A DNA stretch of 64,000 nucleotides from an uncultured Bradymonadales bacterium (lineage in GTDB: Bacteria > Myxococcota_A > Bradymonadia > JAFGEP01). The notes beneath the pieces were generated by a model. It did no database searches, was not told where the DNA came from, and saw nothing but the letters and a program-made list of their open reading frames with translations. Of the stretch, positions 3,186 to 64,000 are shown piece by piece (position 1 is the stretch's first letter; each line of letters begins with the position of its first letter). A program made the position numbers and the translations under genes. The DNA lies in the NCBI GenBank assembly GCA_964503485.1, contig CAZDBH010000002.1, positions 508-64,507 on the forward strand, in the 5' to 3' direction.

Positions 3186-3186
3186 A

Positions 3187-34838: not shown

Positions 34839-35165
34839 GTGCGCAAGTCGGGCTGGGTACTTCCGACGTTGCTACTGATTCCTCTACTGGCCTGGTCATG
34901 GCGCCAGCTGCGCTCAGACCAGCCGCCCTTGACCTTCACAACCGCCAGTATGCAAGTCGAACTGGGAACCAAAGAGCCGCAACCCGGCCTGCTCCAGTGT
35001 ACTCCCAGCGACGAGGTGCTCAGCACAGAGCTGGCGGCGCTACAATACGTCCACTTCTCAGGGCAGCCATGCGCCGAAGATAGGGGCACGCATGTGCTCG
35101 AAGAGTGGCTCGGTGGCAGGTTGCTCTGGAGTCCTGGCAATACGATACGAGTCGAGAGATGGTAA
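34839..35165 (+). CDS. Possible small secreted protein (GTG start).
   Basis: 108-aa ORF in the gap between the CPBP gene and lnt, with a hydrophobic N-terminus (WVLPTLLLIPLLAWSW). No similarity recognised. May be spurious. Confidence 0.25.
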   Translation: MRKSGWVLPTLLLIPLLAWSWRQLRSDQPPLTFTTASMQVELGTKEPQPGLLQCTPSDEVLSTELAALQYVHFSGQPCAEDRGTHVLEEWLGGRLLWSPGNTIRVERW

Positions 35166-43137: not shown

Positions 43138-43238
43138 ATGAGTCTCCCAACGGACCGAGGCGACTCTACCATTTGTCATCCCAAAGTGAAGACGGATTTG
43201 AAGCGGTTGAGTTCAACGTCTACAATCGGGGCTCCATG

Positions 43239-51300: not shown

Positions 51301-52185
51301 CAGATCGCAGGGCTGGTCCTCGGAGCAATCGGCATTGCTGCGGCAACCGGGGCGACAACGGTCGATGTCACACACATAACCCACAGGACACAGATCATTA
51401 TGCGGGTCACACAGTAGGCGCTCGCAGTATCGGAGCTCGTCGTTGCACACCCAATCGGGCTCGTTCCCCCACGCCGTCGCGCAATCGTCCTCGTTTTCGG
51501 GCGTGTCGGGGTCGTCAACTCGGCAACCCGACCGACATTCGGCCGCCTCTTCTTCGCCTTCCTCCGAAAAGCAAAACTCGAGGTTGCTGCACTCGTCGTC
51601 CGCCGTGCAGGCATAGGCCACACAGGTGTGCTCCTCAGAGCAGAACGAGTCGCTACCGCAACAATGCGAGATGTCGGCGTTCGGGCATTCCTCGGCCTCC
51701 AGACGGCAGCCCACGAGGCACCGTTCGGTCTCTGGGTCGCACCAGGTACCATCGTCGCAGGCGGAGTTGTCTTCGCAGCCTGGCTCACAGCCGGGCAACG
51801 TGTGATTCTCGACGCATGTACGGGTCTCGATATCGCAGCTGTGGCACGACGCTTCGCAGCTTCCCGCGCCGGGTCGGTCCCCAGCTCGGCATCCATTCAG
51901 GCAGTCGCCCGATTCGATGTCGCAATACAGACCCTCATCGCACGCGTCGTCTTCTTCGCATGGCACGAAGACATCAATTTCTTCCGTCGCGTCAGGCTCG
52001 TCCTGGACGTCCTCGTCAGGCTCAGCGTCGATATCCGCGTCCGCATCGCCGGTCGCCGTATCGGCAGTCGGAGGGGTCACCGGAGGAGGATCTTCGCCGC
52101 ACGATGCGGCAGCGAGCAGGACGACAACTAAAACACCACAGATCGATCGCAAATGTTGGGAGCAGATCAAGCTAGAATCCGGCAT
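45334..52185 (-). CDS. Giant (2283 aa) secreted lipoprotein: N-terminal Cys-rich modules (paralogous to those of the 1365-aa protein) followed by a long tandem array (>12) of PPC-like domains.
   Basis: Lipobox (LLAAASCGED). Cys-rich NGCRAGDRPGAGSCEASCHSCD, VGCRLEAEECP, SGCRVDD…, PGCRSNADCSEDQPCD modules. Then repeated C..D.D(Y/W/V)(Y/F)..(V/I) PPC signatures (DIDRYRVVG, DTDYWIFDVAPDERVEITLF, DVDYYRFEV, DDDWFAFDVIGTKDVTVSI, DSDVFEVIVG, DADVYKIEVPLG, DVDVYRVVNTVEG…). Confidence 0.75.
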   Translation of the reverse strand: MPDSSLICSQHLRSICGVLVVVLLAAASCGEDPPPVTPPTADTATGDADADIDAEPDEDVQDEPDATEEIDVFVPCEEDDACDEGLYCDIESGDCLNGCRAGDRPGAGSCEASCHSCDIETRTCVENHTLPGCEPGCEDNSACDDGTWCDPETERCLVGCRLEAEECPNADISHCCGSDSFCSEEHTCVAYACTADDECSNLEFCFSEEGEEEAAECRSGCRVDDPDTPENEDDCATAWGNEPDWVCNDELRYCERLLCDPHNDLCPVGYVCDIDRCRPGCRSNADCSEDQPCDLTTRSCRCESDFSCAGLEDLVCVDEHCVASCDRNVDCELFDLPMCNPENGRCVDCECFDEADIDDGDTVAPSSESLFFGVLCGADIDRYRVVGNAGETLNVLVTPDRGEITVQLHDSPNWDGLPLVEHHETIDGPGQFLQIAYPVTVDGTYYISIFGAGITDDQGCSQVGYNTRVERYPSHECRPDEYEENNSFGQSRRLEDGPTRGLTLCADDTDYWIFDVAPDERVEITLFIAEAGENLDLILYDETRSEVDRVDSGEQTELIFAGPTSEESTWYVAVRGHSSSDESGYELYRTDSRFGSCPDDDLEPDNERESATFAESGESFDGLTACQDDEDWFVTQGITGGDLRVSFEQSSAACTLRLTLFAPSGEALQTVENSHPSKELEVEGLLDSGSYAVQVTNLDCLDGADVEGVDYDIDFQFATPRCTDGFEENDVSDDATSILSGSSTFDSGDDAVLCVEDVDYYRFEVRRDATLNVTVNPVLFASSFGLDLLRETDGGELELVKQCIRGSECVRTASAVSIVDERMTAGFYYLRVRQTGFIPVLGGATYQLTARLALDDVECIDEGREPNNGFEFSWAVLPETLCDAESPDDPAYFCERLCPEDNDHWWVSLGGPTHVEVDVRFEDGASGAVRLYELPPDGDEDDLVLRDNQNGSGIVEGDFLTGQAVIIEIDSNESTEELGDAYGFDVILSSVDVCQPSSNSESGFAQSLVLDRTTTGKVCDGHELWYILPVDDERVFSFTLDNTGATADLELTLYQLDGEDLVWIAQDSTSDSSTVIVRSSAWEGMALLKVEPEATAPINGLPFTLLATSEVVTECRDRLEPNESAEQAVYIAGDVDVPLSLCEADDDWFAFDVIGTKDVTVSIHQSDTSAPLTLVILNSEGETVAGPVTDTNADKTLAMADLIGGVYSVHVSGSDGIPVAGIAYSLSVEIGRLECTDSLEDNDTIETASDFLGAESGFLNLTACEGDSDVFEVIVGEGPASLDLSVSRVAPSVSMRLEFLEDDGTEISSQTGSGALISLSETELDPGTFYVRVTATDPSELGENYSLSIVVDEPFDCTDQYEGEGGNDTPATATVLGESTASLAALACEDADVYKIEVPLGPVAITASLTPIDPGPFTITLLDGAEEELGDDGSEVSLNSLAAGTYYVQVTTTAAPKRGRAYVLSISSESDGCVLDPFEPNDSIGEGLPLIPERSDSRAQVLCPGDVDVYRVVNTVEGQNLSVSIQHSPGDNPVRVVVLDGDGVLVAENSFVEGSLGFMGFWTFNLPVATYYVWVSASVGDDGLRYKLWHTLSDDSPCIDDGFEPNDTKSEPFALSSGAHGANLCPAQSDWYSQEIVSTDGEIYIGLSSESGASFQVDLYEADGSTAVAGCTGSDVTGSSGAWTCDGALSDTSDSGEGVTLFAPELSPGTYLIQVSADGVIDSEGADYQLTIEREERGCINDTSEPNESFAGASVPSDRSGDPLPFDGTVGEFRICQDEQDYLTLETTTGLLVTIEGATGNPTELVACLHTSDETELRYVTVSGDTPPGQLAVSNSTEDAYTYYLRVSSEEDVGSIGLPYQLAIEELPLCENDEFEGGPDSFDDPIDGDVALRRDVESGEPNAFRLCPGDRDIFQLQTSVGPVVTCDPDSGDPDCFRCEEDSEPPCGPGLGIKFLDESWDLATEASLAQRAARFRVAIYDSDSEVLAQINDTRFMPMKLAVGAYPSETVYYVVASLDEEFGEPVDYTLLASAAPMCVSERDNHEIEDAVELVLDEEDVCSNRCPDNSDFYSVTVDDGILRLIITGDDLSNLSVRVLQDGDVVPAVEMASFQVDEIVMEGYVEAGTYDFQLEGGDTTDYCMRVSQDECFIDPSDVPEGANDTRGTAYEINWQGGAFAMCPTGTDEDWLAYTVPPPRGGDWNLSFDFEPSSTDPLPDFVFEIVDSDGTVLATVTDETAVVENKRIRTPEINAGSDERTIYVHIASDADQPFEYQFAPIPRCPSCL

Positions 52186-52696
52186 CGGGTGAACGCCTCC
52201 GCCCGTTTGTTTGTTTCAAATGCGCATTTGTGGCTACCAGACCGCACACGGGCGCCACTACTCGGGAACAATAGCCGTGTGGCCAGTTCGATGCAAGGAA
52301 CCCCAGGATTGCACGGTTATCCACCGAACTGGCTCCCGGGTTCTCAATTCCCACGGCCAGTCGACAGCCGTAGTACGCCGTTTGAGCCGGTGCTGGCTCG
52401 TTTTCGGTCTACAAGGTCTGGAAATGGGTTTGCGCCCTGATTTGTACCATAATGGAACGTTGTGTGGGGCGGTGTGGTTGTTCGGCCTACCACATGCTCG
52501 CAGAGCCTCGGTTTCTACCCCCCGTTAGCTTGATTTTTTCGCACTTCTTCCATATTAATGGTTCGGGTACTTTGGGTAAGGTCCCGTGCATCATTTTCAT
52601 TTGCTAACTGACAGTATTGCTAACTTCTTGAAGTTCAACGGTAAATTCCGCATTCGCGTGCCGGGTCGCTCTAGTCGTGGCATTGTCGGGGGTCGT
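52186..52696. promoter_or_regulatory. 510-bp comparatively AT-rich divergent intergenic region between the two giant genes; presumed divergent promoters/regulatory sites.
   Basis: Drop in GC and loss of coding periodicity. Contains tttgtttgtttcaaatgcgcatttg and ttttcatttgctaactgacagtattgctaacttcttgaag (direct repeat ttgctaac x2). No ORF with recognisable features. Confidence 0.35.
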
Positions 52697-55600
52697 ATGA
52701 GTCATTTCTTGAGACGGTTGATCAGTGTCTTGGCTGTTGTGGGCGTGGTCTGCGGCTTCGTACCGCTCGCCACCGCCCACGATCCGATCACAGACGAAAC
52801 CATGAACAACATAGGGAACTGCAGCTCAGGAACCCCAGGTTACAACTGCCAAAACCTGGCGCAATCCGGGTCGGATCTTGCCCTGCTCGGCAACACCTCG
52901 GGGTTGAGTACGTGGGCTTTCAACGATGGCGGCACAGCCGTGATTTCAGTCGGGACGGGGTTTCCAATCCTGTTCGGCGGCAACACCTACACGACGGCCT
53001 ACATCAGCCCGAACGGCTTCGTTTCTTTTAACAACGAGCCTGGGATCGAGCCTCCGATGTACAACGACTACCCGGCTCTCCCCAACGGTACGGGAGCCGG
53101 AAACCGACCGAACAACGGTGTGGCGATCCACGGAACCGATTTGCAGCACAACGGCACCCTTTGGCAAGGAGACAACGATGGCGTCATTCGGTACGGTACC
53201 CGCGGTAGCACCCCCAACCGTCAGTTCATTGTCTGGTTTCACAGCGGCAAGCACTTTGCGAATTCCGATCACTGTGGTCCTACGGAAAACTATCGGATCA
53301 ACTCGATGGCGGTCTGGGAGGAAAACAACCCGGGTTACTTCCGGCTCATCCTCGACAACGCCTCCACTGATTGCCCAACTCCTATCGTCCTGTCGGGCGA
53401 AGAAGCAGAGACGATTGGCTTCGAGAACGCGGCCGGAAACGGAGCCACCTTCTGGCGGGAACGATCACGCAGCTCGTTCCACGGTTTCGGTTGGGCGCAC
53501 CACGAACAACATCGAGATCGGGTGGTCAACCGCACCCTTCACATGACACACGACGAGGCACCCCGCCCTTGTGTGACTCCAGTTGCCGATGGGTCGTTCA
53601 CCTGTACAAACGCCGCCTGGGGGCCCTGGGAGGGTACCGCGGGGGCATACGATATCGGTCGGGCCGACGATGGAAGTGTGTACATCGACCTGAACAACTT
53701 CCCAGGGGGCGGGTCTTGCGTCGATGCGGGCGCGCCAACTTGGTACGCGTACATCGGTGGTGATGCACAGCCCGGCGTGTACATGAACCGCAACGGCTGG
53801 GTCGGGTTGGAATCGAGCACCTCCTCAGACTACGTACCAGAACCAGGGGACAATTCCTCCGATCCAAACACCATCGTGGCCGGGTTTTGGGACGATCTGT
53901 ACTCGCTTGGGGGTAACGGCGCAGTGTACGCCGAATGCAAGGGTACCGCCCCCAACCGGGAGGCTTACTTCACATGGGAGAACGTGCCCCATCTGTGGAA
54001 CTCGACTAAAACTGCCACGTTCCAAATTGTACTCAAAGAGAATCTGGGTGACTTCGAAATCCGGTGGCTCATGGCAACGCCCGATTCGAGTCCAAACAAT
54101 GTCAGCAGCTGGCAAAATCCGGCTGGCGATGGCGAAGTCATCTACGTCGGTAACACCGACCCGATCATCGAAGAAAGGGTCCTGTTGGACAACCACCTGA
54201 ACGGTTGCGGTGTCGTTCCCGAGATCATTGTCGGCAACGGCGAGAATCGTGAAATCAACTGTGACGTGCTCACCACTCGCCTCGACGTCCACCCCAACGG
54301 AACCCTCACCATCGCCAACAACTCGACCTTTATCGCCAAATACGAGGACGATATCGTCCGTTACATCGGCGGCGACTTGATCATCGAGGCTGGCAGCGTC
54401 TTTCAGACAGATGAGATCGACCGCTGGAACAGTTGCCTCGAATCAAACGCCAGTTTCACAGACAGTGCGAATGATCGCTTCGTCTTCGACGAAAACGCCA
54501 CGATCACTGTGAACGGAGAGATGAACCTCGACCTGTGCATCTCAGATTGGCAAACCGACTGGGAGTTTCACTGGTTGGGCGACATCACGGTCAACGCCGG
54601 AGGCAAGATTCAATCTGTTCGCTCGGGCGGCGGCTCATTGCCGTTCCCACCCCCAACCCCCGAGATCACGGACTACGGTCTGTGGCGGATGCGAAACACG
54701 AACCAGAACGCGTCCCTCACCATCAACGGAGGAACGACCAGCCTCGGCCAACTCTACGTCATGGATCAAGGCATCCTCACCATCAATGCGGCCACGGTGC
54801 AGATCGCCAAAATCCTGCGTATTGGTGACAATTCGACCATGAATTTGGGCGTCGGCACAGGTCTTCACATCACAGACGGTACCCTGATCTGCGAGGGCGA
54901 CATCACCATGAGCGGTGGTACACTCAACATCGATGGTGATGCCGACTTCCCCACCGGTGGTACGCCCGGCGGATACAACATCTTCACCGATATCACGACC
55001 AACGATGTCTACGAACGAATCTGGGAGACCGGTGTCACAGATACCATCATCATCGGGTACGCGCCTGATACCTTCTACCGCAGCCTTCATGTGACCGATA
55101 CCTGTAACTTCGTGATGAATTCCGGCACCTTAACCGCTGAGACGGGTCTCTCTGTCGACGGCGGTACCTTCGACCTCAACGGCGGTAATGTCGTCTTCGG
55201 CGACTCGCCAGCACCGGTCGCAATGACCGGTCTCACCAATGTCACCGATGGCGGAACCCTCGACCTCAACGGTGGCACCTTTACAACCGCCTACGTCGGT
55301 GCCGATCTGCTGCAGACCAACGGCGACGTCAACTGGAGTGGCGGAACGGTATCGATCGGGGGCGATGTGCTCGTCAGCCTGTCAGAGACATTCGTCGCTA
55401 CAGCTGGCGCCACCGATTTCGACGTCGCTGGCAACTTCGCTCTCTACGGCACCATGGACCACACTGGCAATGGCACGTTCGATATTGCTAGCCAGCTGCG
55501 TACCTACGGCGGCGGTGACTGGAATTCGTCGGCCGGAATGCTCGAAGCCGGGACGATTCAAATCGACGCCGACAGTGAACTCGATATCACCTCCACCGGC

Positions 55601-58600
55601 GACCTCAACGTCATCGATACGGTCAGTGTGGTCTGCAATACCACCACCGACATGGCCCACTTCGGCCTCGACGGCAACATCACCAAGGAGGTGGGCGAGG
55701 TATTCATCGGCAACGGTACCGATAACGACTGTCGAGCCGAGATGGTCATGACGGGCACGGGCCGAGTCGATTGCGACAACATCGTTATCGCCAACACGGG
55801 TCTGTTTCAAATGGACAATGGAACCCTCGATTGTGACGATGGTTCAGGCGGATACGGATTGCGGGTCGGTGACTATGGCCGCTACGAGCAGAACGGCGGT
55901 ATTGCTGACTTTTACTACGACGTGTTGATCGGCGAAGACATCAATGGCTTCACCGGTCCCTCAAGTCCCCATGGCGACGGTGACAACTTCGAATTGACGG
56001 GTGGCCAATTCTCGACCAGCCGCTTCTCGGCCGATTTCGACTTGGTGAACTCAGGCCGAGCTCACCTAGTAAACGGGGTTGTCCTGCTCATCAACGCCAA
56101 CGCAGACCTCCGCCTTTTCGATAACTCGTACATGGACGTCGACCCCGGAGCGAGATTGAGCGCTGCCGACGGACTCCACGTCTTGGACACCTCGACACTC
56201 GACCTCGATGACAATGTCACATCAACATCGCCATATGACATGGACTTTGGCGGACCCATCGAGGTCGAAGGAACCCTGACTCTTCGAGACCGTGCGGACA
56301 TTCGCGGGGTCGGATACTACAGCTACGACTACACCTTGGGTGGTACCCCTGACGGCGGCGGTGGAAGCGTCGACATGCTAAACCGGTCCACGATGGTCAT
56401 CAACGGCGACTTCGACGGCCGTGAGGACGGCCAGATTAGCCTCGCGAACCGAGCCGTCCTGACGGTTAACGGTAACGTCGCCAATACCGACAACCACGAC
56501 TTCTTGGTGAACAACGGAAACACCGGTTTTGGCGTCATAGTCAACGGGAACGTGACGAACTCGGGGACTGGATCCACCATCAACGTCGGTAACAAGGGTG
56601 GGTTCGACGTCACAGGTCTCTTTGACAATCTGGCTAGCGGCAGTTTTCTGTACCTCTCGAGCGATACCAGCACGATCAATCAGTTCTCGAACGCCGGTAC
56701 ATTCATCAAGAATCTGGCGAACTCGACGCTCGTATTCTCGAACGGCTGGGCCAACACAGGGACGTCTACCCACAGCGACGGTGTCATCCGGCTCGACGCG
56801 GGCGTCTTCTCGGTAGCTGGCGGCAACGTCTATCTAAATGAAACCTTCGACCAAAACTCCAATTCAGCCGCCTCGGTGACGGGCGGTGTGGTGCACGTCA
56901 CCAACAGCAACAGCGACTGGAACAATCCGAACGCCCACATCAATGTCAACAGCACGGGCGGCGGCCAGATTCTGATGAGCGATGGCAACATCGATCACGG
57001 TGTTGGTTTCGACATCAACGTAGACGGCGACAACGCCCTCGATTGGAGCGGTGGTGACATCAACGGCGGTGGTCTCCGGGTAAACTCTGGCGCTCAGACA
57101 TTCGACGGGACCGCTGAGGGCGTGTTCGCACGGACCTTCTTCGTTGAAGACGGAGCCACAGTGGTGCTCGACGCGGCCAACGGCGGCGGCTGGGAGTTTG
57201 ACCTCCAGGGCGGCACGTTGCTCGAAGGCAACGTGACCCAAAGCGGTGCCAACGAGGTCCGTACCACCACATTCCAGGTCGATGTCGGCTCCATCACAAC
57301 CGATGGTCGCTACCGTCAGGACACGTCTGAACTCGAGGTCACCGGTAACGCTACCTTCAACGGCGGCGATTTTCTCAGCCAGGGTGCCGCGGTGACCGAC
57401 TTTCAGGGCAGTCTTACGACAAACGCGGGTGGAGATGGCCCAGACCTCCTGTTCCGCGGAAACACCTCCGTCGGCGACGTCGTTGATCAAAACGCTGGTA
57501 CGCTTATCATCGACGGCATAGGGGCAGCGCCGGGCCAATTCATCGTTTCTGGCTCGACGATTCCCTCCCATACCATCAATAACGCCGATTTCAGTGCCAT
57601 CATGGGCGCGGTCTATCTCAACTCGACCGGTTTCACCCACACCTCTGGTACTTTCAACGCAAACGACTCCTCTGTCCGCCTCAGTTTCGGTGCGGGCAAT
57701 GACGCCGTTTTCTCGAGTGTCACGGGGACGATCACGGACGCAGGGATCAGTGTAGCCGATCGCCTCGAGATCAAGGATGGGTCTGCGTTTACCGTGACTG
57801 ACGGAGCGTCCCCCTATTCAATCTCGGTCGGCGGTACCCTCGAAGTCTCGAGTGTGGCGGCCAGCCAAAGCACCTTCACGATCGACCAACTGCCGGCAAC
57901 ATCAGTCAGTTTTGGTGGGCTGTGGGTGGGCGGCAATGCCGAAGCCACCTTCTCTGCGTCGGGCGGGGCCAAGACCTACGACTTTGGTCTGGTCAGTGTC
58001 TCAACCGGCGGGCACTACTGCGACGGAGCGACAAACCGCTGCAGCGTCGTTGTCGACAACAAGGGCGTGGCGTTCACCGGCAGGCTGATTGTCGGCGACA
58101 ACGTCACCTTCGACCTCGATGAGTCCGTCTACATTAGCCGAGGCGACCTAGAAGTTGGTGAGACCGCAATCGTCAACGTCACCGGTTCGGGCCTGCAAGA
58201 CGAAGTGTTTTTGGACACTGTCTACGGCACGCCCCGAATCGAGATCGACGGCGAAGTGCACGTCAATAACTTCATCAGCGAGGGTGACACCATTCTCTCA
58301 GATAGCGGGGGCGCAGCCCTCTTGGATGTCTGGACTGATGCAACATTCAACGGTGGAACAGGCGACCTCAACGCCAACGGCGTGTTCGACGTAGGAAACA
58401 ACTTGACCACCTCGAGCGCCGCAATCGACTCGGAGTCGCTGGTCACGGTCGGAAACAACATGACCGTCGATGGGGGCAACTGGTACCAAGACACCAACGA
58501 TCTCAGTGTAGCTTCACGCCTGATCGTTGACGGGGCCGCGGCTGATCACGGCGACCTGCAAACACTGGGTGGGGTCACGTCATTCGAGACGCTGCTCGTA

Positions 58601-61600
58601 CGTAGCTACGGTGACTGGCTCATCACCACGCCAGGCTCGGCCGAAACGACGAACACTCAGACCGGGATTCCGGTCCCCGCTGCCGCCAGGGTTCTGGCAA
58701 ACGGCACACTGACCGTGACCAATACCACTCTGGACCTCATCAATGGCGTTGTAGACGGAACCGGAGTCTCGCCCGGCGGAGCGAATCTGCTGGTTCGAGG
58801 TGACGTAACCAACAACGGTACGATTTGGGTCCATCGCCAGCTCGCTGTCGACGATTTAGGCCAGCTCAACACCAGTGGCGTATTCAATGTGTCTCGAAAC
58901 ACGGGCGGCCAGTACTCGATGATCGGGTGCGGTACCAACGGCAACTGCTCGAGTCCCGGTGTGGCTGGAATATTGAACTCAGGTGATCTCAATTTCGGAA
59001 ACGACCTGCTGGTAGCCAGACGCTACGATTCGGTCGGCGGCAACCAAAATACTGGCTGCCGGTCCTTCCCGTGCTTCCCTGGAAACACGAACGGGACAGA
59101 CGAAGGAGCCATCTGGGTCGAGCCAGGCGCACTGTTTTTGACGAGTGCCAATTCCACCGTTACGACGGCCACTGGGACCGCGGCGCGCAACGGTTGCTCG
59201 GCCACAGACGCCTTCATCTCGGCAGGTACAAGCACCTTCGGAGGCGGGCTAGCCACAATCAACGGCGACGTCTGTGTATCCGGTACCGGCGATATGGCAG
59301 CCGACGGTACAGCCGGCTTCTCGCGGATCATCATCGCGGGCGTTTCCGGCGGAGTCGACGATGCCGTCATTACCGTCAATAGTGGCGGTTCTTTCGCCCT
59401 CGACGGCGACGCACTAGTGCAGGGCAACGACTATCTCGGTTCGCCTGGCAGTACGCTCAGCTTGACCGGCAACGGACCCAACCAGAACATCGACTTCAAC
59501 GGCGACGGCCTTGGAGCGTTCGACGTCCCGGGTCCCGTTCTCCAACTGGATGCCGACGTCGGGGGCGTTGCCGAGAACGTCGTCCGCACCGGTACGCTCG
59601 ACCAGCAAGACGGTACAGTCTGGGCGGACAGCATCGTGTCGATTCTCGGCGTTGGAAGCGTCAGTGTAGTTGAGGCCGACGCCCGTCTGTATGGCCAATA
59701 CCTGCAAGTTTCCTCAGTCACGACGAGCTTCACGGTCAACGACACCGCCCAGGTCATCATGGCCGCAGACGCCTTTGACAACACCACCCAGAACCAATTC
59801 AACAGTCAGGTCCTATTCGACGATTCGAGTGTGTTCACCACAACTCAGGACGTCTTCGTCGGAGGCGCAGGTCAGCTCGCATTCCGAGGTACGACATTTA
59901 CAATGGACGACGCGGTGACGACTGACCTGGTTCTATCGGTGGCCCCCGATTCAACTGCCAGCTTCGAAGGTGGTGTGGCGAACGTCGATGGACATCTCCA
60001 TCTGACAGAAGGAACCGCCGGTCCGGTCCAGCCGGCAACCTTGTCAATGTCGAACAACGCCCAGCTGACGGTGACTACAAACGATGACTCGGCGTACTTC
60101 CTCGGCGGCATCGTCAATCTCTTGGATACCAGCCGTTTGACCCTGTCCTCGTTCATGCTCAAGTCAAACACCGATCCGGACACCAACGCCGCCGATCGCG
60201 CCCAGATCACTGTGTATCAAGACGCCTGGTTGATCGCCGACTTGCCAGGGACCACGCTCCCGGCGGGTTATAGCTGTACCGATCCGGCCTACGGACCATC
60301 AGGTGCAGGCCCCACATTCTCGAATCATCAGTGGTGTTCGCGACTGCACGGAAATGCCCGAATCGACGTCGTCGACAACGGGACATTCGACACAGACAAC
60401 CGACTCATCATCAACAGCGATTCGAGCTTCACAGCAAACGGGCAATGGGACGCCGACCCCTCCACTCGTTTAGGTCTACACGTCGTCGATACCGCAGATC
60501 TCGTTTCCCGTTGGTTGCCCGGCGGCAACTCGCTGCACGGCATCTCGGTTCGACAGGACGCCGTTCTCGTGGCCGAAGACTCGGCAACGATTGATGCTGG
60601 TGTCATTCACGCCAACACCGTAGGAACCAATTCGGGTTGGGCTGGCACGTTGGTCTTGGCCGATTCTGCGTCACTCCAGGTCGACTACCTCAATCTCGAT
60701 GGCAACAGTCGGATGCTGTACTACGGGCTTCCTACGACCGTGATCCGCAACCTGCCGGCTTATGCCGCGCTCCACGCACTGTTGCCCTGGGAGCTCGACC
60801 TGCCCGACAACTCCGTCGTGGCGGCTCCTGCCGATGGACTATACGGGACCACCAATCCCGGGCCGGGTACGCCGCCCGGATTCGCATGCGGCGGAGGCGG
60901 CGGTGGCCAGGTTACGCCAGGTGGCGGTGGCCAGGACGATAGCAACAACCCGTCTGGCGTAGGCGGAATCTGTGGTGGCTGCGATACATTCGACGTTCAC
61001 CCAACAAGTACCGAAACCATGTTCGTGCCGCCCGGTGTCTCGAGCCGCGGTGGGGACGGTGGCCCGGCAATCTTTGGTGGATTCGCGTCCAGCCGAATCT
61101 ACTTCTACGGCGAAGACGGAACGCTCCTACACTTGTGGGGCGACATGTTGGCCAATGGTGGCGACGCGCCCGACAACAACTGTGCCGGCGGCGGGGCTTC
61201 CGGCGGCTCGATCTACGTGGAAGGCGACGACCTCGATATCGGCAGCTCGCTAACGGTTACGGCAGACGGCGGTGATGGAGGCCAGAACGCTGCTCAGACC
61301 GAATGGCGCGGCGGCGGCGGAGCCGGCGGCACGATTCAGTTTATCTATCGCAACAACGCGGGCGGTAGCGGTGACTTCCGCCGAGTCTACTCACGCGGTG
61401 GATCTGGTTACGAGGACGGTACACACGGGACAGCGGTTCTGGCCGAATGGAACCCAATACTGAACCGAATTCAGAATGTCGACTCGACCTACTTGGTCTT
61501 CAAATCGGCGGCCACCGATTCATTCACCTTCTATTCGCGCTGGAACCAGCTCAATCCAATCAACCCGAGCATTCGCGGCGAAGTGACCGAGTTTGGTGAC

Positions 61601-64000
61601 ACACTGTTGACCGTCCACGGCGACATCACGATGGAAGACAGCGACTGGCGCCAGCGTTCTGCTGCCTTGGATATCGTTATGCTGCCCAACGCGCCCGAAG
61701 ACGGCAGCATCCACATGGATGACTCCACCATCGTTCTGCTCGACAGCGCGCCCGACCCAGCTGTTAGTTTTACCAGCTCGGGTGTTGGCAACCTTCTGGA
61801 CCAGGGCTCCTTTGTCGAGATTCCCAACATCAACGTGATTGGCGCCAGTGGCGTCTGGAATATCAATGGGACCAGTGCCGCCAATCGAAGCGGGATGAAG
61901 GGCACTAACATCACCTTTACCAACATCGACGACCTAACTGTCGGCACTTGGGCGTACCTGGAAGGCAACGTCGATGTCACAGCCAACAACACCATCACCA
62001 CGTCCCGCTCAACAGACCCGGCATCAGCGACCTATGTATCGGCCGATGGTGTCGCTTGTGCAGGACCGCAACCCGGAGGCGCAGCCGCGGGCGGCGGGCA
62101 CGGTGGGGCAGGCGGTGACGGTATCGGCCTTGGTGGCGACTACTACGACAACGCAATCCTACCGCTTCTCGGTGGCAGCGAGGGCGGCAACGGGGCAACC
62201 GGAACCGGCGGCTGCGGCGGAGGTGTCGTCACCTTCACCGCACCCACATGCACCATCGACTCTCTGGTAACCGCCAACGGCGCAGATGGCATTGTGGACG
62301 GTGGAGGCGGATCAGGTGGATCGATCGTCCTCGCCTGCGCGGCCCTCACGTTTACCAACCCATCGACCAGTGTGCTCACCGCCCAGGGCGGAGACGGCAC
62401 GGGCGTAGCCGGCGGCGGTGGCGGTGGAACTGTGAGTATCGTCACTGACACTGAGGTGGCGAATGTCGAGTGTGACGTCGACGGTGGTACCGGAGCCACA
62501 GGCGACGGTGGAATCGGAAACTGTAGTCAACGCTACGGAACCGCCGCGCCATACTCGCTGCGAGTCGCCGAAGGCTTCCGAATGCAGGAGAACGACCGCG
62601 CCAACCTCGGGGCCGGCGCCGCGCCCCCGGCGGTGGCTCTAGATACCTTCCTCGCCGAGTCTGGAACTGAGGTGACGAGCAACTTCAGTGAGACCTCGGG
62701 CGGAACGGGTCTGATCGAGGCCGACAATGACTTCACGCTAGAAACTGTCGCAAAATGGGACCCCTGGGCCGCGACGAACCTGACCGTGCACGAGACGCTC
62801 TACTGGCAGCAAGACAGCTACGTAGGCAGCTCGGTCAACTCACCAGATATGGCGTTGAACGTCGGCACCTTCGCTTTCTTCCGAAATCAAGCCGAACTGG
62901 GCGACGTGATCGTGCGGGCAATCCCCGGAAAGGCCCCGAGTGTCGAATTTGGCGATCTGGCTGGAGGGTCCTTCGGACCGTGGTACGCCAACCGCACAGA
63001 CGTCCATCTCACAAACACGGGAGTCCTAACCGGCGACATTACTCACTTCTCTCCCTACCAAATCGACGCCAATGGGCGCGGTAGCGCGGGTGGTGTCTCC
63101 GAAGACGAGTCAGGCACCGGTCCCGGCGGTGGAGAATACGGTCGCAATGCAGGTGGCGCCGGCGGCGGTTCGGGCGGCCGAGGTGCCCAGCCGCAGGTCG
63201 TTATCGGGTCAACACCCTCCCCCGGGCTCTACGCAGGTACTTCTCGCAATCCCAATGCCACGGGCGGCGGTGGCGGCGTTGGTTTCATTACGGCTCCCGG
63301 CCTCTCGGCCGGCGGTAACGGTGGTGGTCAAGTACGGTTGGCGGCGACACTCGTCGATGTAGCCAGTACGATCAGCGCCGACGGAGCCGCTGGCTCGACG
63401 AGTTCCGACTTCCAAACAGGCGGCGGCGGCGGCGGTGGTGGCCAAATCGCGATTCAGGCAGCAGGGCTCACAGTCAATCCAGCGACGACTCTCTTCTTTG
63501 CTCGCGGTGGCGCGTCTGGAACCGGTGTACAGGCGGCAGGTGGTGCCGGTGGTGGCGGTCGCGTCATGATCACACTCGAAGGGGGATCGGCTGCTGCTGC
63601 CGAGACCCTCGCGGACCAACTCAACGCGACATTGGGCCACGTCGATCCCGGCCTGAACTGGGATCCGGCCAATGGTGCTGAGGTTGGGACGATGGGTGTT
63701 CTCTGGGTCGGCCCGCCCAACCAGGATCAGCTCTTCGCCGTCAGCGGTTGGCGACACGACGACTTCCAAGCGGTTCTTCTAGATCGCTTCGATGCCACAC
63801 GGTCCGTTTTTGTTCACGATTTGGGTCTTCCGGCTGTCACAATCAGCGCTGGAACGCAGCTCGAGCTCGACGGGGTGGAATGGGGCGCGAATGACGACGT
63901 CACCTTCATCACTCCGTCTATTCTGTTTGACGCCGTCGTCTTCAAGATGGTCGGAACACTCTCATTTCAGGTCGATACGCCAACCACGGTCAACGGCTCA
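52697..64000 (+). CDS. Giant (>3760 aa, 3'-truncated by the window end) secreted glycine/Asn/Thr-rich beta-helical repeat protein (adhesin/autotransporter-passenger-like).
   Basis: ATG at 52697 (frame 2) opens MSHFLRRLISVLAVVGVVCGFVPLATAHDP (signal peptide). No stop in this frame to position 64000; every track ORF in this span lies in another frame or strand. Recurrent G.L.LNGGT(F/L), DGG…, NGN…, and poly-Gly tracts (GGGGGGGQIAIQAAG, GGAGGGGRVMITLEGG) typical of parallel beta-helix/pectate-lyase-like adhesin repeats. Confidence 0.7.
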   Translation, partial: MSHFLRRLISVLAVVGVVCGFVPLATAHDPITDETMNNIGNCSSGTPGYNCQNLAQSGSDLALLGNTSGLSTWAFNDGGTAVISVGTGFPILFGGNTYTTAYISPNGFVSFNNEPGIEPPMYNDYPALPNGTGAGNRPNNGVAIHGTDLQHNGTLWQGDNDGVIRYGTRGSTPNRQFIVWFHSGKHFANSDHCGPTENYRINSMAVWEENNPGYFRLILDNASTDCPTPIVLSGEEAETIGFENAAGNGATFWRERSRSSFHGFGWAHHEQHRDRVVNRTLHMTHDEAPRPCVTPVADGSFTCTNAAWGPWEGTAGAYDIGRADDGSVYIDLNNFPGGGSCVDAGAPTWYAYIGGDAQPGVYMNRNGWVGLESSTSSDYVPEPGDNSSDPNTIVAGFWDDLYSLGGNGAVYAECKGTAPNREAYFTWENVPHLWNSTKTATFQIVLKENLGDFEIRWLMATPDSSPNNVSSWQNPAGDGEVIYVGNTDPIIEERVLLDNHLNGCGVVPEIIVGNGENREINCDVLTTRLDVHPNGTLTIANNSTFIAKYEDDIVRYIGGDLIIEAGSVFQTDEIDRWNSCLESNASFTDSANDRFVFDENATITVNGEMNLDLCISDWQTDWEFHWLGDITVNAGGKIQSVRSGGGSLPFPPPTPEITDYGLWRMRNTNQNASLTINGGTTSLGQLYVMDQGILTINAATVQIAKILRIGDNSTMNLGVGTGLHITDGTLICEGDITMSGGTLNIDGDADFPTGGTPGGYNIFTDITTNDVYERIWETGVTDTIIIGYAPDTFYRSLHVTDTCNFVMNSGTLTAETGLSVDGGTFDLNGGNVVFGDSPAPVAMTGLTNVTDGGTLDLNGGTFTTAYVGADLLQTNGDVNWSGGTVSIGGDVLVSLSETFVATAGATDFDVAGNFALYGTMDHTGNGTFDIASQLRTYGGGDWNSSAGMLEAGTIQIDADSELDITSTGDLNVIDTVSVVCNTTTDMAHFGLDGNITKEVGEVFIGNGTDNDCRAEMVMTGTGRVDCDNIVIANTGLFQMDNGTLDCDDGSGGYGLRVGDYGRYEQNGGIADFYYDVLIGEDINGFTGPSSPHGDGDNFELTGGQFSTSRFSADFDLVNSGRAHLVNGVVLLINANADLRLFDNSYMDVDPGARLSAADGLHVLDTSTLDLDDNVTSTSPYDMDFGGPIEVEGTLTLRDRADIRGVGYYSYDYTLGGTPDGGGGSVDMLNRSTMVINGDFDGREDGQISLANRAVLTVNGNVANTDNHDFLVNNGNTGFGVIVNGNVTNSGTGSTINVGNKGGFDVTGLFDNLASGSFLYLSSDTSTINQFSNAGTFIKNLANSTLVFSNGWANTGTSTHSDGVIRLDAGVFSVAGGNVYLNETFDQNSNSAASVTGGVVHVTNSNSDWNNPNAHINVNSTGGGQILMSDGNIDHGVGFDINVDGDNALDWSGGDINGGGLRVNSGAQTFDGTAEGVFARTFFVEDGATVVLDAANGGGWEFDLQGGTLLEGNVTQSGANEVRTTTFQVDVGSITTDGRYRQDTSELEVTGNATFNGGDFLSQGAAVTDFQGSLTTNAGGDGPDLLFRGNTSVGDVVDQNAGTLIIDGIGAAPGQFIVSGSTIPSHTINNADFSAIMGAVYLNSTGFTHTSGTFNANDSSVRLSFGAGNDAVFSSVTGTITDAGISVADRLEIKDGSAFTVTDGASPYSISVGGTLEVSSVAASQSTFTIDQLPATSVSFGGLWVGGNAEATFSASGGAKTYDFGLVSVSTGGHYCDGATNRCSVVVDNKGVAFTGRLIVGDNVTFDLDESVYISRGDLEVGETAIVNVTGSGLQDEVFLDTVYGTPRIEIDGEVHVNNFISEGDTILSDSGGAALLDVWTDATFNGGTGDLNANGVFDVGNNLTTSSAAIDSESLVTVGNNMTVDGGNWYQDTNDLSVASRLIVDGAAADHGDLQTLGGVTSFETLLVRSYGDWLITTPGSAETTNTQTGIPVPAAARVLANGTLTVTNTTLDLINGVVDGTGVSPGGANLLVRGDVTNNGTIWVHRQLAVDDLGQLNTSGVFNVSRNTGGQYSMIGCGTNGNCSSPGVAGILNSGDLNFGNDLLVARRYDSVGGNQNTGCRSFPCFPGNTNGTDEGAIWVEPGALFLTSANSTVTTATGTAARNGCSATDAFISAGTSTFGGGLATINGDVCVSGTGDMAADGTAGFSRIIIAGVSGGVDDAVITVNSGGSFALDGDALVQGNDYLGSPGSTLSLTGNGPNQNIDFNGDGLGAFDVPGPVLQLDADVGGVAENVVRTGTLDQQDGTVWADSIVSILGVGSVSVVEADARLYGQYLQVSSVTTSFTVNDTAQVIMAADAFDNTTQNQFNSQVLFDDSSVFTTTQDVFVGGAGQLAFRGTTFTMDDAVTTDLVLSVAPDSTASFEGGVANVDGHLHLTEGTAGPVQPATLSMSNNAQLTVTTNDDSAYFLGGIVNLLDTSRLTLSSFMLKSNTDPDTNAADRAQITVYQDAWLIADLPGTTLPAGYSCTDPAYGPSGAGPTFSNHQWCSRLHGNARIDVVDNGTFDTDNRLIINSDSSFTANGQWDADPSTRLGLHVVDTADLVSRWLPGGNSLHGISVRQDAVLVAEDSATIDAGVIHANTVGTNSGWAGTLVLADSASLQVDYLNLDGNSRMLYYGLPTTVIRNLPAYAALHALLPWELDLPDNSVVAAPADGLYGTTNPGPGTPPGFACGGGGGGQVTPGGGGQDDSNNPSGVGGICGGCDTFDVHPTSTETMFVPPGVSSRGGDGGPAIFGGFASSRIYFYGEDGTLLHLWGDMLANGGDAPDNNCAGGGASGGSIYVEGDDLDIGSSLTVTADGGDGGQNAAQTEWRGGGGAGGTIQFIYRNNAGGSGDFRRVYSRGGSGYEDGTHGTAVLAEWNPILNRIQNVDSTYLVFKSAATDSFTFYSRWNQLNPINPSIRGEVTEFGDTLLTVHGDITMEDSDWRQRSAALDIVMLPNAPEDGSIHMDDSTIVLLDSAPDPAVSFTSSGVGNLLDQGSFVEIPNINVIGASGVWNINGTSAANRSGMKGTNITFTNIDDLTVGTWAYLEGNVDVTANNTITTSRSTDPASATYVSADGVACAGPQPGGAAAGGGHGGAGGDGIGLGGDYYDNAILPLLGGSEGGNGATGTGGCGGGVVTFTAPTCTIDSLVTANGADGIVDGGGGSGGSIVLACAALTFTNPSTSVLTAQGGDGTGVAGGGGGGTVSIVTDTEVANVECDVDGGTGATGDGGIGNCSQRYGTAAPYSLRVAEGFRMQENDRANLGAGAAPPAVALDTFLAESGTEVTSNFSETSGGTGLIEADNDFTLETVAKWDPWAATNLTVHETLYWQQDSYVGSSVNSPDMALNVGTFAFFRNQAELGDVIVRAIPGKAPSVEFGDLAGGSFGPWYANRTDVHLTNTGVLTGDITHFSPYQIDANGRGSAGGVSEDESGTGPGGGEYGRNAGGAGGGSGGRGAQPQVVIGSTPSPGLYAGTSRNPNATGGGGGVGFITAPGLSAGGNGGGQVRLAATLVDVASTISADGAAGSTSSDFQTGGGGGGGGQIAIQAAGLTVNPATTLFFARGGASGTGVQAAGGAGGGGRVMITLEGGSAAAAETLADQLNATLGHVDPGLNWDPANGAEVGTMGVLWVGPPNQDQLFAVSGWRHDDFQAVLLDRFDATRSVFVHDLGLPAVTISAGTQLELDGVEWGANDDVTFITPSILFDAVVFKMVGTLSFQVDTPTTVNGS

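What the first reader, a model, noticed from the sequence alone, without database searches (positions are those of the whole stretch)
52697..64000. >11.3-kb uninterrupted ORF encoding a glycine-rich beta-helical giant protein, divergent from the 2283-aa gene
Frame 2 is open from the ATG at 52697 to the window end (no ORF-track entry, because no stop occurs). The product is >3760 aa: signal peptide, N/T/G-rich repeats (…LDLNGGTFTT…, …TVNGN…), and toward the distal end dense poly-Gly/Ala segments (GGGGAGGTIQF, GGGGGGGQIAIQAAG). This resembles autotransporter-passenger or filamentous-adhesin beta-helices, yet it is in a Myxococcota-like background and paired divergently with another giant gene across a 510-bp AT-rich control region. 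It is a candidate fibre/adhesin or S-layer-like component.
Basis: seen in the sequence. Interest (0 to 1): 0.5.

Follow-up and report, generated by a model that had tools for sequence, protein, structure and literature searches.

The report
Truncated giant beta-helix surface protein gene
The window holds the first ~56% of a real gene for a ~6,600-residue secreted rod-shaped (beta-helix) protein, probably a cell-surface fibre or adhesin, from a very rare, unannotated family that resembles type V secretion adhesins in fold but lacks their secretion hallmarks.

Summary
Positions 52697-64000 (+) form one open frame of 3768 codons with no stop. It has a coding-type composition, a signal peptide and no DNA repeats.

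It is a real gene, cut by the window end. Three metagenomic relatives align collinearly over the whole length: 6590 aa, 6726 aa, and one split by an in-frame TAG. The full protein is therefore probably about 6.6 kaa.

Architecture:
- Sec signal peptide.
- Two NIDO-like domains.
- At least 3 units of ~360 aa (5 in relatives), each with a Gly-rich beta-helix module. No Pfam model covers the module, and it weakly matches the NCBIfam AgmC N-terminal model.

In the relatives the missing half carries LamG, a weak HYR match and a conserved Cys-containing helix-looking tail. There is no beta-barrel, TPS domain or toxin tip.

In all four loci the gene is divergently paired with the 2283-aa acidic lipoprotein. 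The window cluster also encodes an exosortase. Two relatives have a 60-aa PEP-CTERM-like mini-ORF overlapping the giant gene's stop.

Best reading: a giant surface fibre/adhesin that does not use type V secretion. Function is inferred. It is a new variant of a known kind, of moderate interest.

The parts
52697..64000 (+). Giant ORF, 3768 codons with no stop, cut by the window end. This is about 56% of a gene expected to encode ~6.6 kaa.
   Evidence: open frame, codon-position GC. (collinear relatives P0033 at 6590 aa and P0032 at 6726 aa, 25-60% identity per 100 aa with very few gaps).
52697..52777 (+). Predicted Sec signal peptide (aa 1-27: basic RR, a 17-residue hydrophobic core, then ATA|HD).
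   Evidence: Read from the sequence. The relatives have equivalent N-termini ending A-H-D/S. No signal-peptide predictor was available.
52919..53269 (+). NIDO-like domain A (aa ~75-191; motifs ISPNGFVSF and PNRQFIVWF).
   Evidence: A profile built from 247 homologous segments of domain B hits this region at E 2e-20.
53624..54175 (+). NIDO-like domain B (aa 310-493; motifs NRNGWVGL, FWDDL, PNREAYFTWENV).
   Evidence: Hundreds of proteins share this domain. Four of seven tested score above the Pfam NIDO PF06119 threshold; in P0043 the NIDO hit lies inside the region aligned to the giant. The giant itself gives no direct Pfam hit.
54254..60796 (+). Central non-repetitive right-handed parallel beta-helix region (aa ~520-2700). 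Modelled part: aa 860-1855, i.e. 55274-58261.
60911..61429 (+). Gly-rich beta-helix module 1 (aa 2739-2911), the most divergent copy.
   Evidence: Local module HMM, i-Evalue 1.6e-4.
61985..62506 (+). Gly-rich beta-helix module 2 (aa 3097-3270). Consensus: ..dGkGY..GpG.G..GGGHGGaGG..YGs...P..GSGGG..GGaGGGaI.l.a..l.vdG.isAnG.dG..gGGSGGSI.l....l.G.G.i.A.GG.G..GGGGGGRIA.
63059..63601 (+). Gly-rich beta-helix module 3 (aa 3455-3635).
   Evidence: HMM i-Evalue 2.3e-16. Matches positions 238-404 of 412 in NCBIfam NF047640 gliding_AgmC_N at E 6e-7 and 28.7 bits, against a family cut-off of 275.
52186..52696 (.). 511-bp divergent intergenic region shared with the 2283-aa gene.
   Evidence: GC 0.54 and a few short blocks conserved with L003/L004. 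No sigma-70 consensus, no Rfam match, and folding no better than shuffles, z 0.36.
45334..52185 (-). Conserved divergent partner: a 2283-aa acidic (D+E 20.8%), Cys-rich (4.2%) predicted lipoprotein with a PPC domain. It is unrelated in sequence to the giant.
   Evidence: Pfam PPC at E 1.8e-14. No similarity to the giant. 39% identical over its full length to the 2296-aa divergent neighbour of P0033. The partner is also present in L004 and L008.
43173..45308 (+). FG-GAP / UnbV_ASPIC protein. A cluster member that sits downstream of the giant gene in relative L003.
   Evidence: Pfam. 33% identical to the 650-aa gene in L003.
41572..43179 (-). 535-aa predicted lipoprotein, conserved cluster member.
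   Evidence: 26% identity over 438 aa to the 543-aa gene in L003, E 6e-46. Lipobox-like N-terminus.
37390..41487 (-). 1365-aa Cys-rich protein, conserved cluster member.
   Evidence: 47% identity to the 1340-aa gene in L003. Weak Dickkopf_N-like Cys-rich hit.
36521..37378 (-). Exosortase (EpsH family, no named subtype), adjacent to the 1365-aa gene.
   Evidence: Pfam PF09721 at 131 bits. NCBIfam signature TIGR04178 at 57 bits against a cut-off of 23; all subtype models are below their cut-offs. The adjacency is conserved in L005/L006.

Best explanation
The ORF is the 5' ~56% of a genuine gene for a ~6,600-residue secreted protein that forms a very long, rigid right-handed parallel beta-helix rod.

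Shown:
- An N-terminal signal peptide is followed by two NIDO-like domains.
- About 2,200 residues of non-repetitive beta-helix come next.
- They are followed by ~360-residue units (3 in the window, 5 in full-length relatives), each containing a ~175-residue glycine-rich beta-helix module.
- In the relatives the missing half adds a LamG lectin-type domain, a weak HYR match, regions that by eye look IPT-like and Cys/Asp-rich, and a conserved Cys-containing C-terminal region that looks helical.

Inferred:
- The protein is exported by Sec and reaches the cell surface by a route other than type V secretion.
- There it acts as a ~50-80 nm fibre or adhesin. One end carries the NIDO-like pair. The other end carries the lectin/Ig-like domains and associates with the envelope.
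- It works together with the conserved divergently transcribed 2283-aa acidic lipoprotein and the other cluster lipoproteins.
- Anchoring may involve the cluster's exosortase and a small PEP-CTERM-like protein that is translationally coupled to the giant gene in relatives.
For: A real gene under constraint:
- 0 stops in 3768 codons, against 57-207 in the other frames, with GC3 0.70.
- No DNA repeats.
- Three relatives are collinear over aa 10-3767 with very few gaps.

Fold:

N-terminal domains: two NIDO-like domains by profile and transitive Pfam evidence.

Gly module:
- Three periodic modules.
- They belong to a wider family of multi-module proteins, several carrying G8 domains.
- They are similar to the AgmC N-terminal model.

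Missing half, seen in relatives: Laminin_G_3 at E 1e-18 and a weak HYR hit.

Conserved cluster and divergent pairing in 4 of 4 loci.

Exosortase in the window, and PEP-CTERM-like mini-ORFs overlapping the giant gene's stop by 4 nt in L003 and L004.

Literature: bacterial proteins of 5,000 aa or more are rare, relatively frequent in Myxococcota among other phyla, and generally linked to adhesion (bioRxiv 10.1101/2023.11.21.568195).
Against: - No functional assay or expression evidence exists.
- The C-terminus of this particular gene is not in the window. It is probably also missing from the 70,216-bp source contig.
- The surface location, export route and adhesin role are inferred from fold and domain types only.
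- The PEP-CTERM matches of the mini-ORFs fall just below the curated cut-off: 14.2 and 14.9 bits against 16.
- The exosortase link is by proximity only.
- The NIDO assignment is transitive. The giant itself does not reach Pfam significance.
Confidence: 0.6

Rival explanations
1. It is a classical type V secretion substrate: either an autotransporter passenger with a C-terminal barrel beyond the window, or a TpsA filamentous adhesin exported by a TpsB partner.
For: The best structural matches are autotransporter passengers and TpsA proteins. The C-terminus of this copy is unseen.
Against: - The N-terminus is a NIDO-like pair, not a TPS domain, and no Pfam or NCBIfam type V model hits.
- Full-length relatives end in a Cys-containing region that looks helical, with no autotransporter barrel. 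The precomputed Pfam for P0033 lists only Laminin_G_3, and for P0032 nothing.
- No TpsB/Omp85/POTRA gene is in the window or in L003.
Confidence: 0.04
2. It is a contact-dependent polymorphic toxin (CdiA/Rhs/MafB-like): a beta-helical stalk delivering a variable C-terminal toxin, with the small downstream ORF acting as the immunity protein.
For: It has a giant beta-helix stalk. A small ORF overlaps the giant gene's stop by 4 nt in two relatives.
Against: - The C-terminal halves of P0032 and P0033 stay 44-77% identical up to the last block compared, about 90 residues from the end, with no abrupt divergence.
- No toxin domain is found by Pfam or by PDB sequence search.
- The small ORF is itself conserved and looks like a signal peptide followed by a PEP-CTERM-like anchor, not a cytoplasmic immunity protein.
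Confidence: 0.04
3. It is a giant extracellular carbohydrate-active enzyme or depolymerase (pectate-lyase-like fold), for example for degrading prey cell walls or exopolysaccharide, rather than an adhesin.
For: - The relatives carry LamG lectin-type domains.
- The literature links giant genes to cell-wall degradation by predatory bacteria.
Against: - Adhesin and passenger helices score higher than enzymes.
- No PbH1, pectate-lyase or glycoside-hydrolase model hits at E <= 0.1.
- A helix of more than 3000 residues far exceeds known catalytic beta-helix domains.
- No catalytic motif was identified, and none was specifically searched for.
Confidence: 0.1
4. It is a surface-motility (gliding) adhesin related in role to Myxococcus AgmC. 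The Gly-rich modules would form the substrate-contacting part of a motility machine.
For: Module 3 and 6 of 33 family modules match NCBIfam NF047640 'adventurous gliding motility protein AgmC, N-terminal'. This is a special case of the adhesin explanation.
Against: - The score of 28.7 bits is far below the 275-bit equivalog cut-off, so only a module is shared.
- No Agl/Glt motility genes were seen in the window.
- No accessible literature describes AgmC's role.
- The organism's phylum is undetermined.
Confidence: 0.12
5. It is an S-layer-like lattice component.
For: It is large, acidic, low in lysine and secreted.
Against: - No SLH or S-layer family hit.
- A 50-80 nm rod is unlike lattice-forming S-layer subunits.
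- The family is very rare, and the gene shows no sign of the high-expression features expected of an S-layer gene (not tested).
Confidence: 0.03
6. It is not a functional gene: a chance open frame, an assembly chimera or a pseudogene.
For: One relative (L008) carries an in-frame TAG in the middle of the gene.
Against: - 3768 stop-free codons with coding composition.
- Collinear conservation with three relatives at 25-60% identity.
- No repeats that could drive misassembly.
- Confident fold predictions.
Confidence: 0.01

Closest known systems
Autotransporter (type Va) passenger domains: Vag8, Hap, pertactin, VacA p55, UpaB
   Different: There is no C-terminal beta-barrel translocator in the full-length relatives. 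The helix is 5-10 times longer. The N-terminus carries NIDO-like domains. LamG and a weak HYR match lie C-terminal to the helix. There is no sequence-level family match.
Two-partner-secretion (type Vb) TpsA adhesins: EtpA, HMW1, FHA, HxuA
   Different: There is no TPS secretion domain at the N-terminus and no TpsB partner gene nearby.
Myxococcus AgmC (NCBIfam NF047640, gliding_AgmC_N)
   Same: The C-terminal half of that model (positions 238-404 of 412) aligns with the Gly-rich module.
   Different: Only one module is shared, at 28.7 bits against the 275-bit cut-off. The overall architecture and size differ, and AgmC's mechanism is not described in the searchable literature.
Uncharacterised multi-module Gly-rich / G8-domain proteins of 840-1700 aa (e.g. 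MBI2441109.1 from Lentisphaerota, HTI98662.1 from Dongiaceae)
   Same: They carry the same ~175-aa Gly-rich beta-helix module, repeated 2-6 times at ~280-360-aa spacing.
   Different: They are 4-8 times shorter. They lack the NIDO pair and the 2200-aa central helix. Several have G8 or InlB-B-repeat-like domains instead. All are annotated 'hypothetical protein'.
NIDO domain proteins (Pfam PF06119; nidogen, mucin-4, tectorin in animals, plus many bacterial proteins)
   Same: The two N-terminal domains share the NG(f)(v)sF, (F)WdDL and PnR..v.W.nv motifs. They are homologous to bacterial domains that pass the NIDO threshold.
   Different: The giant's own domains do not reach Pfam significance. 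The function of bacterial NIDO-like domains is unknown.
Other giant bacterial surface proteins (Omnitrophota giant proteins, Apilactobacillus Giant1-5, MpIBP/RTX adhesins)
   Same: Similar size class (over 5,000 aa), extracellular location, and a presumed adhesion role.
   Different: Those are built mainly from tandem Ig-like or other repeats, or from antiparallel beta-helices. This one is a non-repetitive parallel beta-helix with no detectable tandem repeats.

Membership tests
Autotransporter (type Va secretion) | N-terminal Sec signal peptide | tested here: met
   aa 1-27 have a basic n-region, a hydrophobic core and ATA|HD. The feature is conserved in relatives. This was read by eye; no predictor was run.
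Autotransporter (type Va secretion) | Right-handed beta-helical passenger | tested here: met
Autotransporter (type Va secretion) | C-terminal 12-stranded beta-barrel translocator (PF03797) | tested here: not met
   The window copy lacks its C-terminus. In the collinear full-length relative P0033, a Pfam scan of the last 2290 aa finds only Laminin_G_3 and a weak HYR hit. The precomputed Pfam lists Laminin_G_3 only for P0033 and nothing for P0032. By eye the tail is Cys-containing and helix-rich.
Two-partner secretion TpsA (type Vb) | N-terminal TPS secretion domain (PF05860 Haemagg_act) | tested here: not met
   No Pfam or NCBIfam hit at E <= 0.1 over all 3768 aa. The N-terminus is occupied by two NIDO-like domains.
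Two-partner secretion TpsA (type Vb) | Adjacent TpsB (POTRA + Omp85-type barrel) gene | tested here: not met
   None of the larger window ORFs scanned with Pfam is a TpsB, and none of the genes flanking P0033 in L003 is.
NIDO domain (Pfam PF06119) | Direct match of the protein to the Pfam model above the gathering score | tested here: not met
   No Pfam family hits the giant at E <= 0.1.
NIDO domain (Pfam PF06119) | Homology to domains that do pass the NIDO threshold | tested here: met
   - Domain B (aa ~310-493) hits hundreds of proteins.
- P0038, P0043, P0049 and P0050 score 37-81 bits on NIDO, against a cut-off of 25.
- In P0043 the NIDO hit (336-392) lies inside the segment aligned to the giant (281-436).
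- Domain A is detected by the domain-B profile at E 2e-20.
AgmC (NCBIfam NF047640, equivalog domain) | Score at or above the curated cut-off of 275 bits over the 412-position model | tested here: not met
   28.7 bits, E 6e-7, covering only model positions 238-404. Only a module is shared; this is not membership.
Exosortase / PEP-CTERM sorting system | Exosortase (EpsH family) encoded nearby | tested here: met
   Window 36521-37378 (-): PF09721 at 131 bits and TIGR04178 at 57 bits against a cut-off of 23.
Exosortase / PEP-CTERM sorting system | PEP-CTERM signal at the C-terminus of the giant protein | not testable with these tools
   The C-terminus lies outside the window. The tails of the relatives P0032 and P0033 show no PEP + transmembrane + basic motif.
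Exosortase / PEP-CTERM sorting system | A cognate PEP-CTERM protein in the cluster | tested here: inconclusive
   The 60- and 63-aa mini-ORFs overlapping the giant gene's stop in L003 and L004 score 14.2 and 14.9 bits on TIGR02595, against a cut-off of 16. A motif screen recovers them and finds no credible candidate inside the window.
RTX / beta-roll (GGxGxD) and PE_PGRS-type Gly-rich repeats | Nonapeptide Ca-binding repeats (PF00353) | tested here: not met
   No Pfam hit. The Gly runs are followed by a beta-strand (GGGGSGGSI.l), and the module is modelled as a pectate-lyase-type helix, not a beta-roll.
Polymorphic toxin (CdiA-like) | Variable C-terminal toxin domain after a conserved stalk | tested here: not met
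   The C-terminal halves of P0032 and P0033 remain 44-77% identical up to the last block compared, about 90 residues from the end. No toxin family or PDB match was found.

The most novel reading that the evidence does not exclude
This is the founding example of a previously undescribed class of ~6.6-kaa surface fibres that fold like type V adhesins but are exported and anchored differently. The giant protein has no sorting signal of its own. It would be tethered through a translationally coupled 60-aa PEP-CTERM-like mini-protein, processed by the cluster's untyped exosortase, and would work with a conserved 2283-aa acidic lipoprotein partner. The same Gly-rich beta-helix module, absent from Pfam, is shared with the gliding-motility protein AgmC. 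That would point to a role in surface motility or cell-cell/prey contact in an uncultured lineage.
Probability: 0.12. Interest if true: 0.7.

Novelty: new variant of a known kind. Interest (0 to 1): 0.45.

Why it matters
Giant beta-helical adhesins are known almost entirely from type V secretion. This one has the same fold at 5-10 times the length, with none of the defining type V parts. That raises the question of how a ~700-kDa rod crosses an outer membrane and stays attached.

The family is very rare. Only three relatives were found among 1.84 billion representative proteins, and none among the GTDB species representatives. It is invisible to Pfam and NCBIfam.

The work also defines a ~175-aa Gly-rich beta-helix module that recurs in dozens of 'hypothetical' proteins and in the AgmC model. 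It could be curated as a new domain family.

The conserved gene cluster gives concrete hypotheses that can be tested. It comprises the partner lipoprotein, an FG-GAP/ASPIC protein, Cys-rich proteins, an exosortase and a PEP-CTERM-like mini-ORF.

In practice, the finding shows that this gene is truncated in the assembly and that word-index searches miss its true orthologues.

Tried and rejected
Sequence-family and structure searches that found nothing:
- Pfam and NCBIfam on all 3768 aa gave no hits.
- PDB sequence searches with the protein, the module profile and a relative's tail gave nothing meaningful.

Homology searches:
- The full-length word-index search timed out.
- The N-terminal 900 aa gave no hits, although 33-37% orthologues exist, so that index is insensitive here.
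- The partner search likewise missed the known 39% orthologue.

Attempts to recover the missing 3' end all failed:
- GTDB genome scan with the last 400 aa and with the family alignment.
- JGI metagenome scan with the alignment and with a wobble-masked DNA pattern from the window end.
- Exact look-ups of the 2283-aa and 427-aa neighbours.
- The NCBI source contig (70,216 bp) is not in the position index.
- Walking along a related species' 57-kb contig was blocked, because arbitrary proteins cannot be looked up. That species is only 78-83% identical in DNA.

Other dead ends:
- The afdb50 fold library was unavailable.
- The literature held nothing on AgmC or on the sample accessions.
- No riboswitch or structured leader was found upstream, and no sigma-70 consensus promoter.
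- There is no similarity between the giant and its 2283-aa partner.

Ideas considered and rejected: the ALK-type glycine-rich domain with polyglycine-II helices, and the RTX beta-roll. These were recalled from memory. There is no Pfam hit, and the module is modelled as an ordinary three-faced beta-helix.
Full report
**1. The observation**

Translating window 52697-64000 (+) gives 3768 codons without a stop. The five other frames of the same stretch contain 57-207 stops. GC by codon position is 0.589/0.498/0.699, the pattern expected of a real gene in a 59% GC genome.

The nearest upstream in-frame stop is at 52577. The ATG at 52697 follows a GGGGG motif and opens a typical signal peptide, MSHFLRRLISVLAVVGVVCGFVPLATA|HD. 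An independent gene call from a metagenome, P0030 (241 aa, 100% identical), begins at the same methionine.

Composition is G 15.2%, T 9.7%, D 8.3%, N 7.2% and only 0.5% K.

Two refinements are needed:
- The strong glycine enrichment (25-28%) is limited to three blocks.
- There are no sequence repeats. Self-BLASTP, TRF and a direct-repeat search find essentially nothing. The 'repeats' are degenerate beta-helix rungs, and a repeat-driven misassembly is unlikely.

The spacer to the divergent 2283-aa gene is 511 bp. Its GC is 0.54 against 0.593 for the window, so it is only mildly AT-rich.

**2. The gene is truncated and has true orthologue-like relatives**

Pfam and NCBIfam give no hit at E <= 0.1 for the 3768 aa, and PDB sequences give none. 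The word-index homology search found nothing for the N-terminal 900 aa.

The exhaustive HMMER search with aa 1-1200 found 447 proteins. Three of them are family members:
- P0033, 6590 aa.
- P0032, 6726 aa.
- P0031, 1826 aa.

P0032 and P0033 align with the window protein from aa ~10 to ~3767 in a single collinear stretch, at 2250 and 2172 bits. Identity per 100 aa is 15-60%, with very few gaps, and is highest from aa ~1300 onward.

P0031 is the first part of a copy interrupted by one in-frame TAG. The next ORF continues collinearly with window aa 1868-3740.

The window therefore holds about 56% of a gene expected to encode ~6.6 kaa. The source contig is an NCBI record of 70,216 bp. At most 6.2 kb lies outside the window, whereas about 8.5 kb more is needed, so the gene is probably cut by the contig end as well.

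No family member was found among 185,579 GTDB species representatives or in JGI metagenomes by pattern scans. The family is very rare in current data.

**3. Architecture of the part in the window**

(a) Signal peptide, aa 1-27. This was read from the sequence. It is conserved in the relatives, which all end A-H-D/S.

(b) Two NIDO-like domains.
- Domain B (aa 310-493) is shared with hundreds of proteins, some holding up to 14 copies.
- Four of seven such proteins pass the Pfam NIDO threshold. In P0043 the NIDO hit lies inside the segment aligned to the giant.
- A profile of 247 domain-B homologues also detects aa 75-191 at E 2e-20.
- The giant's own domains do not reach Pfam significance, so the assignment is transitive.

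(c) Central region, aa ~520-2700.
- An AF2 model of aa 860-1855 was built from a four-sequence family alignment. It has mean pLDDT 77.9, about 100 short strands and essentially no helix.
- These are followed by a phage tail fibre, then HxuA and EtpA at ~19 and, lower down, tailspikes and polysaccharide lyases.

(d) Three ~360-aa units, each holding a ~175-aa Gly-rich module (aa 2739-2911, 3097-3270, 3455-3635).
- The module occurs 2-6 times per protein in 29 uncharacterised proteins of 840-1700 aa. Several also have a G8 domain. Those with names are all 'hypothetical protein', from Lentisphaerota and Dongiaceae MAGs.
- No Pfam model covers the module in any of 33 instances, and no PDB sequence matches its profile.
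- The only named relation is weak. Module 3 and 6 of 33 family modules match the C-terminal half of NCBIfam NF047640, 'adventurous gliding motility protein AgmC, N-terminal'. The score is 28.7 bits against a 275-bit cut-off. A module is shared; this is not family membership.

A rough size estimate follows, as inference. About 30 residues per rung at 4.8 Å rise gives ~50 nm for the helical part in the window, and ~60-80 nm for the complete protein.

**4. What the missing half probably contains (from relatives)**

P0032, P0033 and the L008 copy each have five Gly modules. P0032 and P0033 continue for ~2300 further residues. Reading that sequence by eye suggests:
- an IPT-like segment;
- a Cys/Asp-rich segment;
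- a possible propeller-like stretch;
- a conserved Cys-containing tail that looks helical.

Pfam adds a solid Laminin_G_3 domain (E 1e-18) and a weak HYR match.

There is no autotransporter barrel. By eye there is no PEP-CTERM or other sorting tail.

There is also no polymorphic-toxin pattern. The two tails remain 44-77% identical up to the last block compared, about 90 residues from the end, and they match nothing in PDB sequences.

**5. Genomic context**

The divergent pairing is conserved in all four loci. The window's 2283-aa gene has these properties:
- It is a predicted acidic, Cys-rich lipoprotein with a PPC domain.
- It is 39% identical over its full length to the 2296-aa divergent neighbour of P0033.
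- It matches the partial divergent genes in L004 and L008.
- It shares no sequence similarity with the giant.

The 1365-aa Cys-rich gene (47% identity), the 535-aa lipoprotein (26%) and the FG-GAP/UnbV_ASPIC gene (33%) are also conserved. The last one sits at a different position in L003.

Next to the 1365-aa gene the window encodes an exosortase:
- PF09721 scores 131 bits, and TIGR04178 scores 57 bits against a cut-off of 23.
- No named subtype fits.
- The adjacency is conserved in a related species.

In L003 and L004 a 63- or 60-aa ORF overlaps the giant gene's stop by 4 nt.
- It encodes a signal peptide followed by a PEP...hydrophobic...basic tail.
- It scores 14.2 and 14.9 bits on PEP_CTERM against a cut-off of 16.
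- A calibrated motif screen recovers these two and finds nothing credible inside the window. Any equivalent in this organism lies beyond position 64000.

No TpsB/Omp85 gene is present. The spacer has no sigma-70 consensus, no Rfam match and no unusual RNA structure (z 0.36). A few short blocks are conserved among the three spacers.

**6. Most likely mechanism**

Shown: this is a real, conserved, Sec-targeted giant protein. Most of the part in the window is modelled, or inferred from sequence character, to be a right-handed beta-helix. It has NIDO-like domains at one end. In relatives it has lectin/Ig-type domains at the other. It sits in a conserved cluster of lipoproteins with an exosortase.

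Inferred: it is an extracellular or cell-surface fibre or adhesin that does not use type V secretion. It probably acts with the divergent partner. It may be tethered through the exosortase and the mini PEP-CTERM protein.

Rivals are less supported. The sections and calls cited in the rival list give the evidence against each:
- type V substrate;
- CdiA-like toxin;
- giant depolymerase;
- AgmC-like gliding adhesin, which is a special case of the main explanation;
- S-layer component;
- non-gene.

**7. Comparison and novelty**

The protein works like, and folds like, autotransporter and TpsA adhesins. It fails the defining membership features of both, namely the barrel, the TPS domain and TpsB. 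It also falls far below the AgmC equivalog threshold.

Giant bacterial surface proteins are a known, rare category usually tied to adhesion. Myxococcota are among the phyla relatively rich in them. This gene is best classed as a new variant of a known kind: a non-repetitive, non-type-V, ~6.6-kaa parallel beta-helix protein with an uncurated Gly-rich module.

The organism's phylum was not determined. Exact copies of neighbouring proteins occur only in unnamed NCBI, ENA, JGI and Logan metagenome records.

**8. Verdict**

Interest is moderate at 0.45. The gene is real, unusual and unannotated. However, its function is inferred, the gene is incomplete in the window, and giant beta-helical adhesin-like proteins are an established concept.

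Noticed in passing
window 36521-37378 (-), with 35105-36637 (+) and 32874-34835 (+): An exosortase of no named subtype sits next to an apolipoprotein N-acyltransferase (Lnt, 131.4 bits against a cut-off of 132.9) and a 653-aa protein with a C-terminal CPBP/Rce1-like intramembrane protease domain. That is three envelope-protein-processing enzymes side by side, adjacent to the giant-protein cluster. The Lnt and exosortase ORFs overlap convergently by ~117 bp as listed.
   Followed up: partly
L003 29770-29961 (+) and L004 21158-21340 (+): 63- and 60-aa ORFs overlap the stop of the relatives' giant genes by 4 nt. They encode a signal peptide, a PPPP linker and a PEP-CTERM-like tail (..SPEPLSALLLAAGAAPAYLTYRWVRRK..). 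They score just below the PEP_CTERM cut-off. The equivalent position in this organism lies beyond the window.
   Followed up: partly
L008 7149-7151: One family member has a single in-frame TAG (..LDGELYA*NFTSEGTF..) at the position equivalent to window aa ~1857, after which the frame continues for at least 3324 aa. This could be a sequencing error, a recent pseudogene or read-through. It was not resolved.
   Followed up: no
window 45334-52185 (-): The 2283-aa partner is extremely acidic (D 11.3%, E 9.5%), Cys-rich (4.2%) and nearly lysine-free (0.6%). It has a lipobox (LLAAASC) and a PPC domain. Both giant proteins share the near-absence of lysine.
   Followed up: partly
window 7587-8504 (+): A rhomboid-family protease scores 54.7 bits on the rhombosortase model, below the cut-off of 84. 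It is another possible sorting protease in the same window.
   Followed up: no
window 24146-27484 (-): A 1112-aa Ser/Thr protein kinase is fused to an AAA_16 ATPase domain. It is conserved at 90% identity or more in several metagenome contigs.
   Followed up: no
window 37390-41487 (-), 20866-22668 (-), 41572-43179 (-), 43173-45308 (+): Most large neighbours have lipobox-like N-termini and Cys-rich or eukaryote-ECM-like domains (a weak Dickkopf_N-like hit, Big_5, FG-GAP/UnbV_ASPIC). The region looks like a dense island of surface lipoproteins.
   Followed up: partly
L003 and L005 (both from ENA sample ERZ24794645): The same metagenome contains two relevant organisms. One carries the distant family member P0033. 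The other is a species 78-83% identical in DNA to window region 20.8-41.1 kb. Its 57-kb contig, NODE_4122, should by geometry extend ~9 kb past the window-equivalent end. It could not be walked with the permitted look-ups.
   Followed up: partly
method note: The word-index homology search missed all true orthologues at 33-39% identity, both of the giant protein and of its partner. Only the exhaustive HMMER search found them. The low-complexity, Gly/Thr/Asn-rich composition probably saturates the candidate list.
   Followed up: yes
window 52186-52696 compared with L003 9664-10000 and L004 520-980: Short conserved blocks (e.g. ..TAGC..N..ATGCAAG.. and ..AATAATGG..) occur in the divergent spacers of three loci despite 33-39% protein identity. 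They may be shared regulatory sites. Their significance was not assessed.
   Followed up: no
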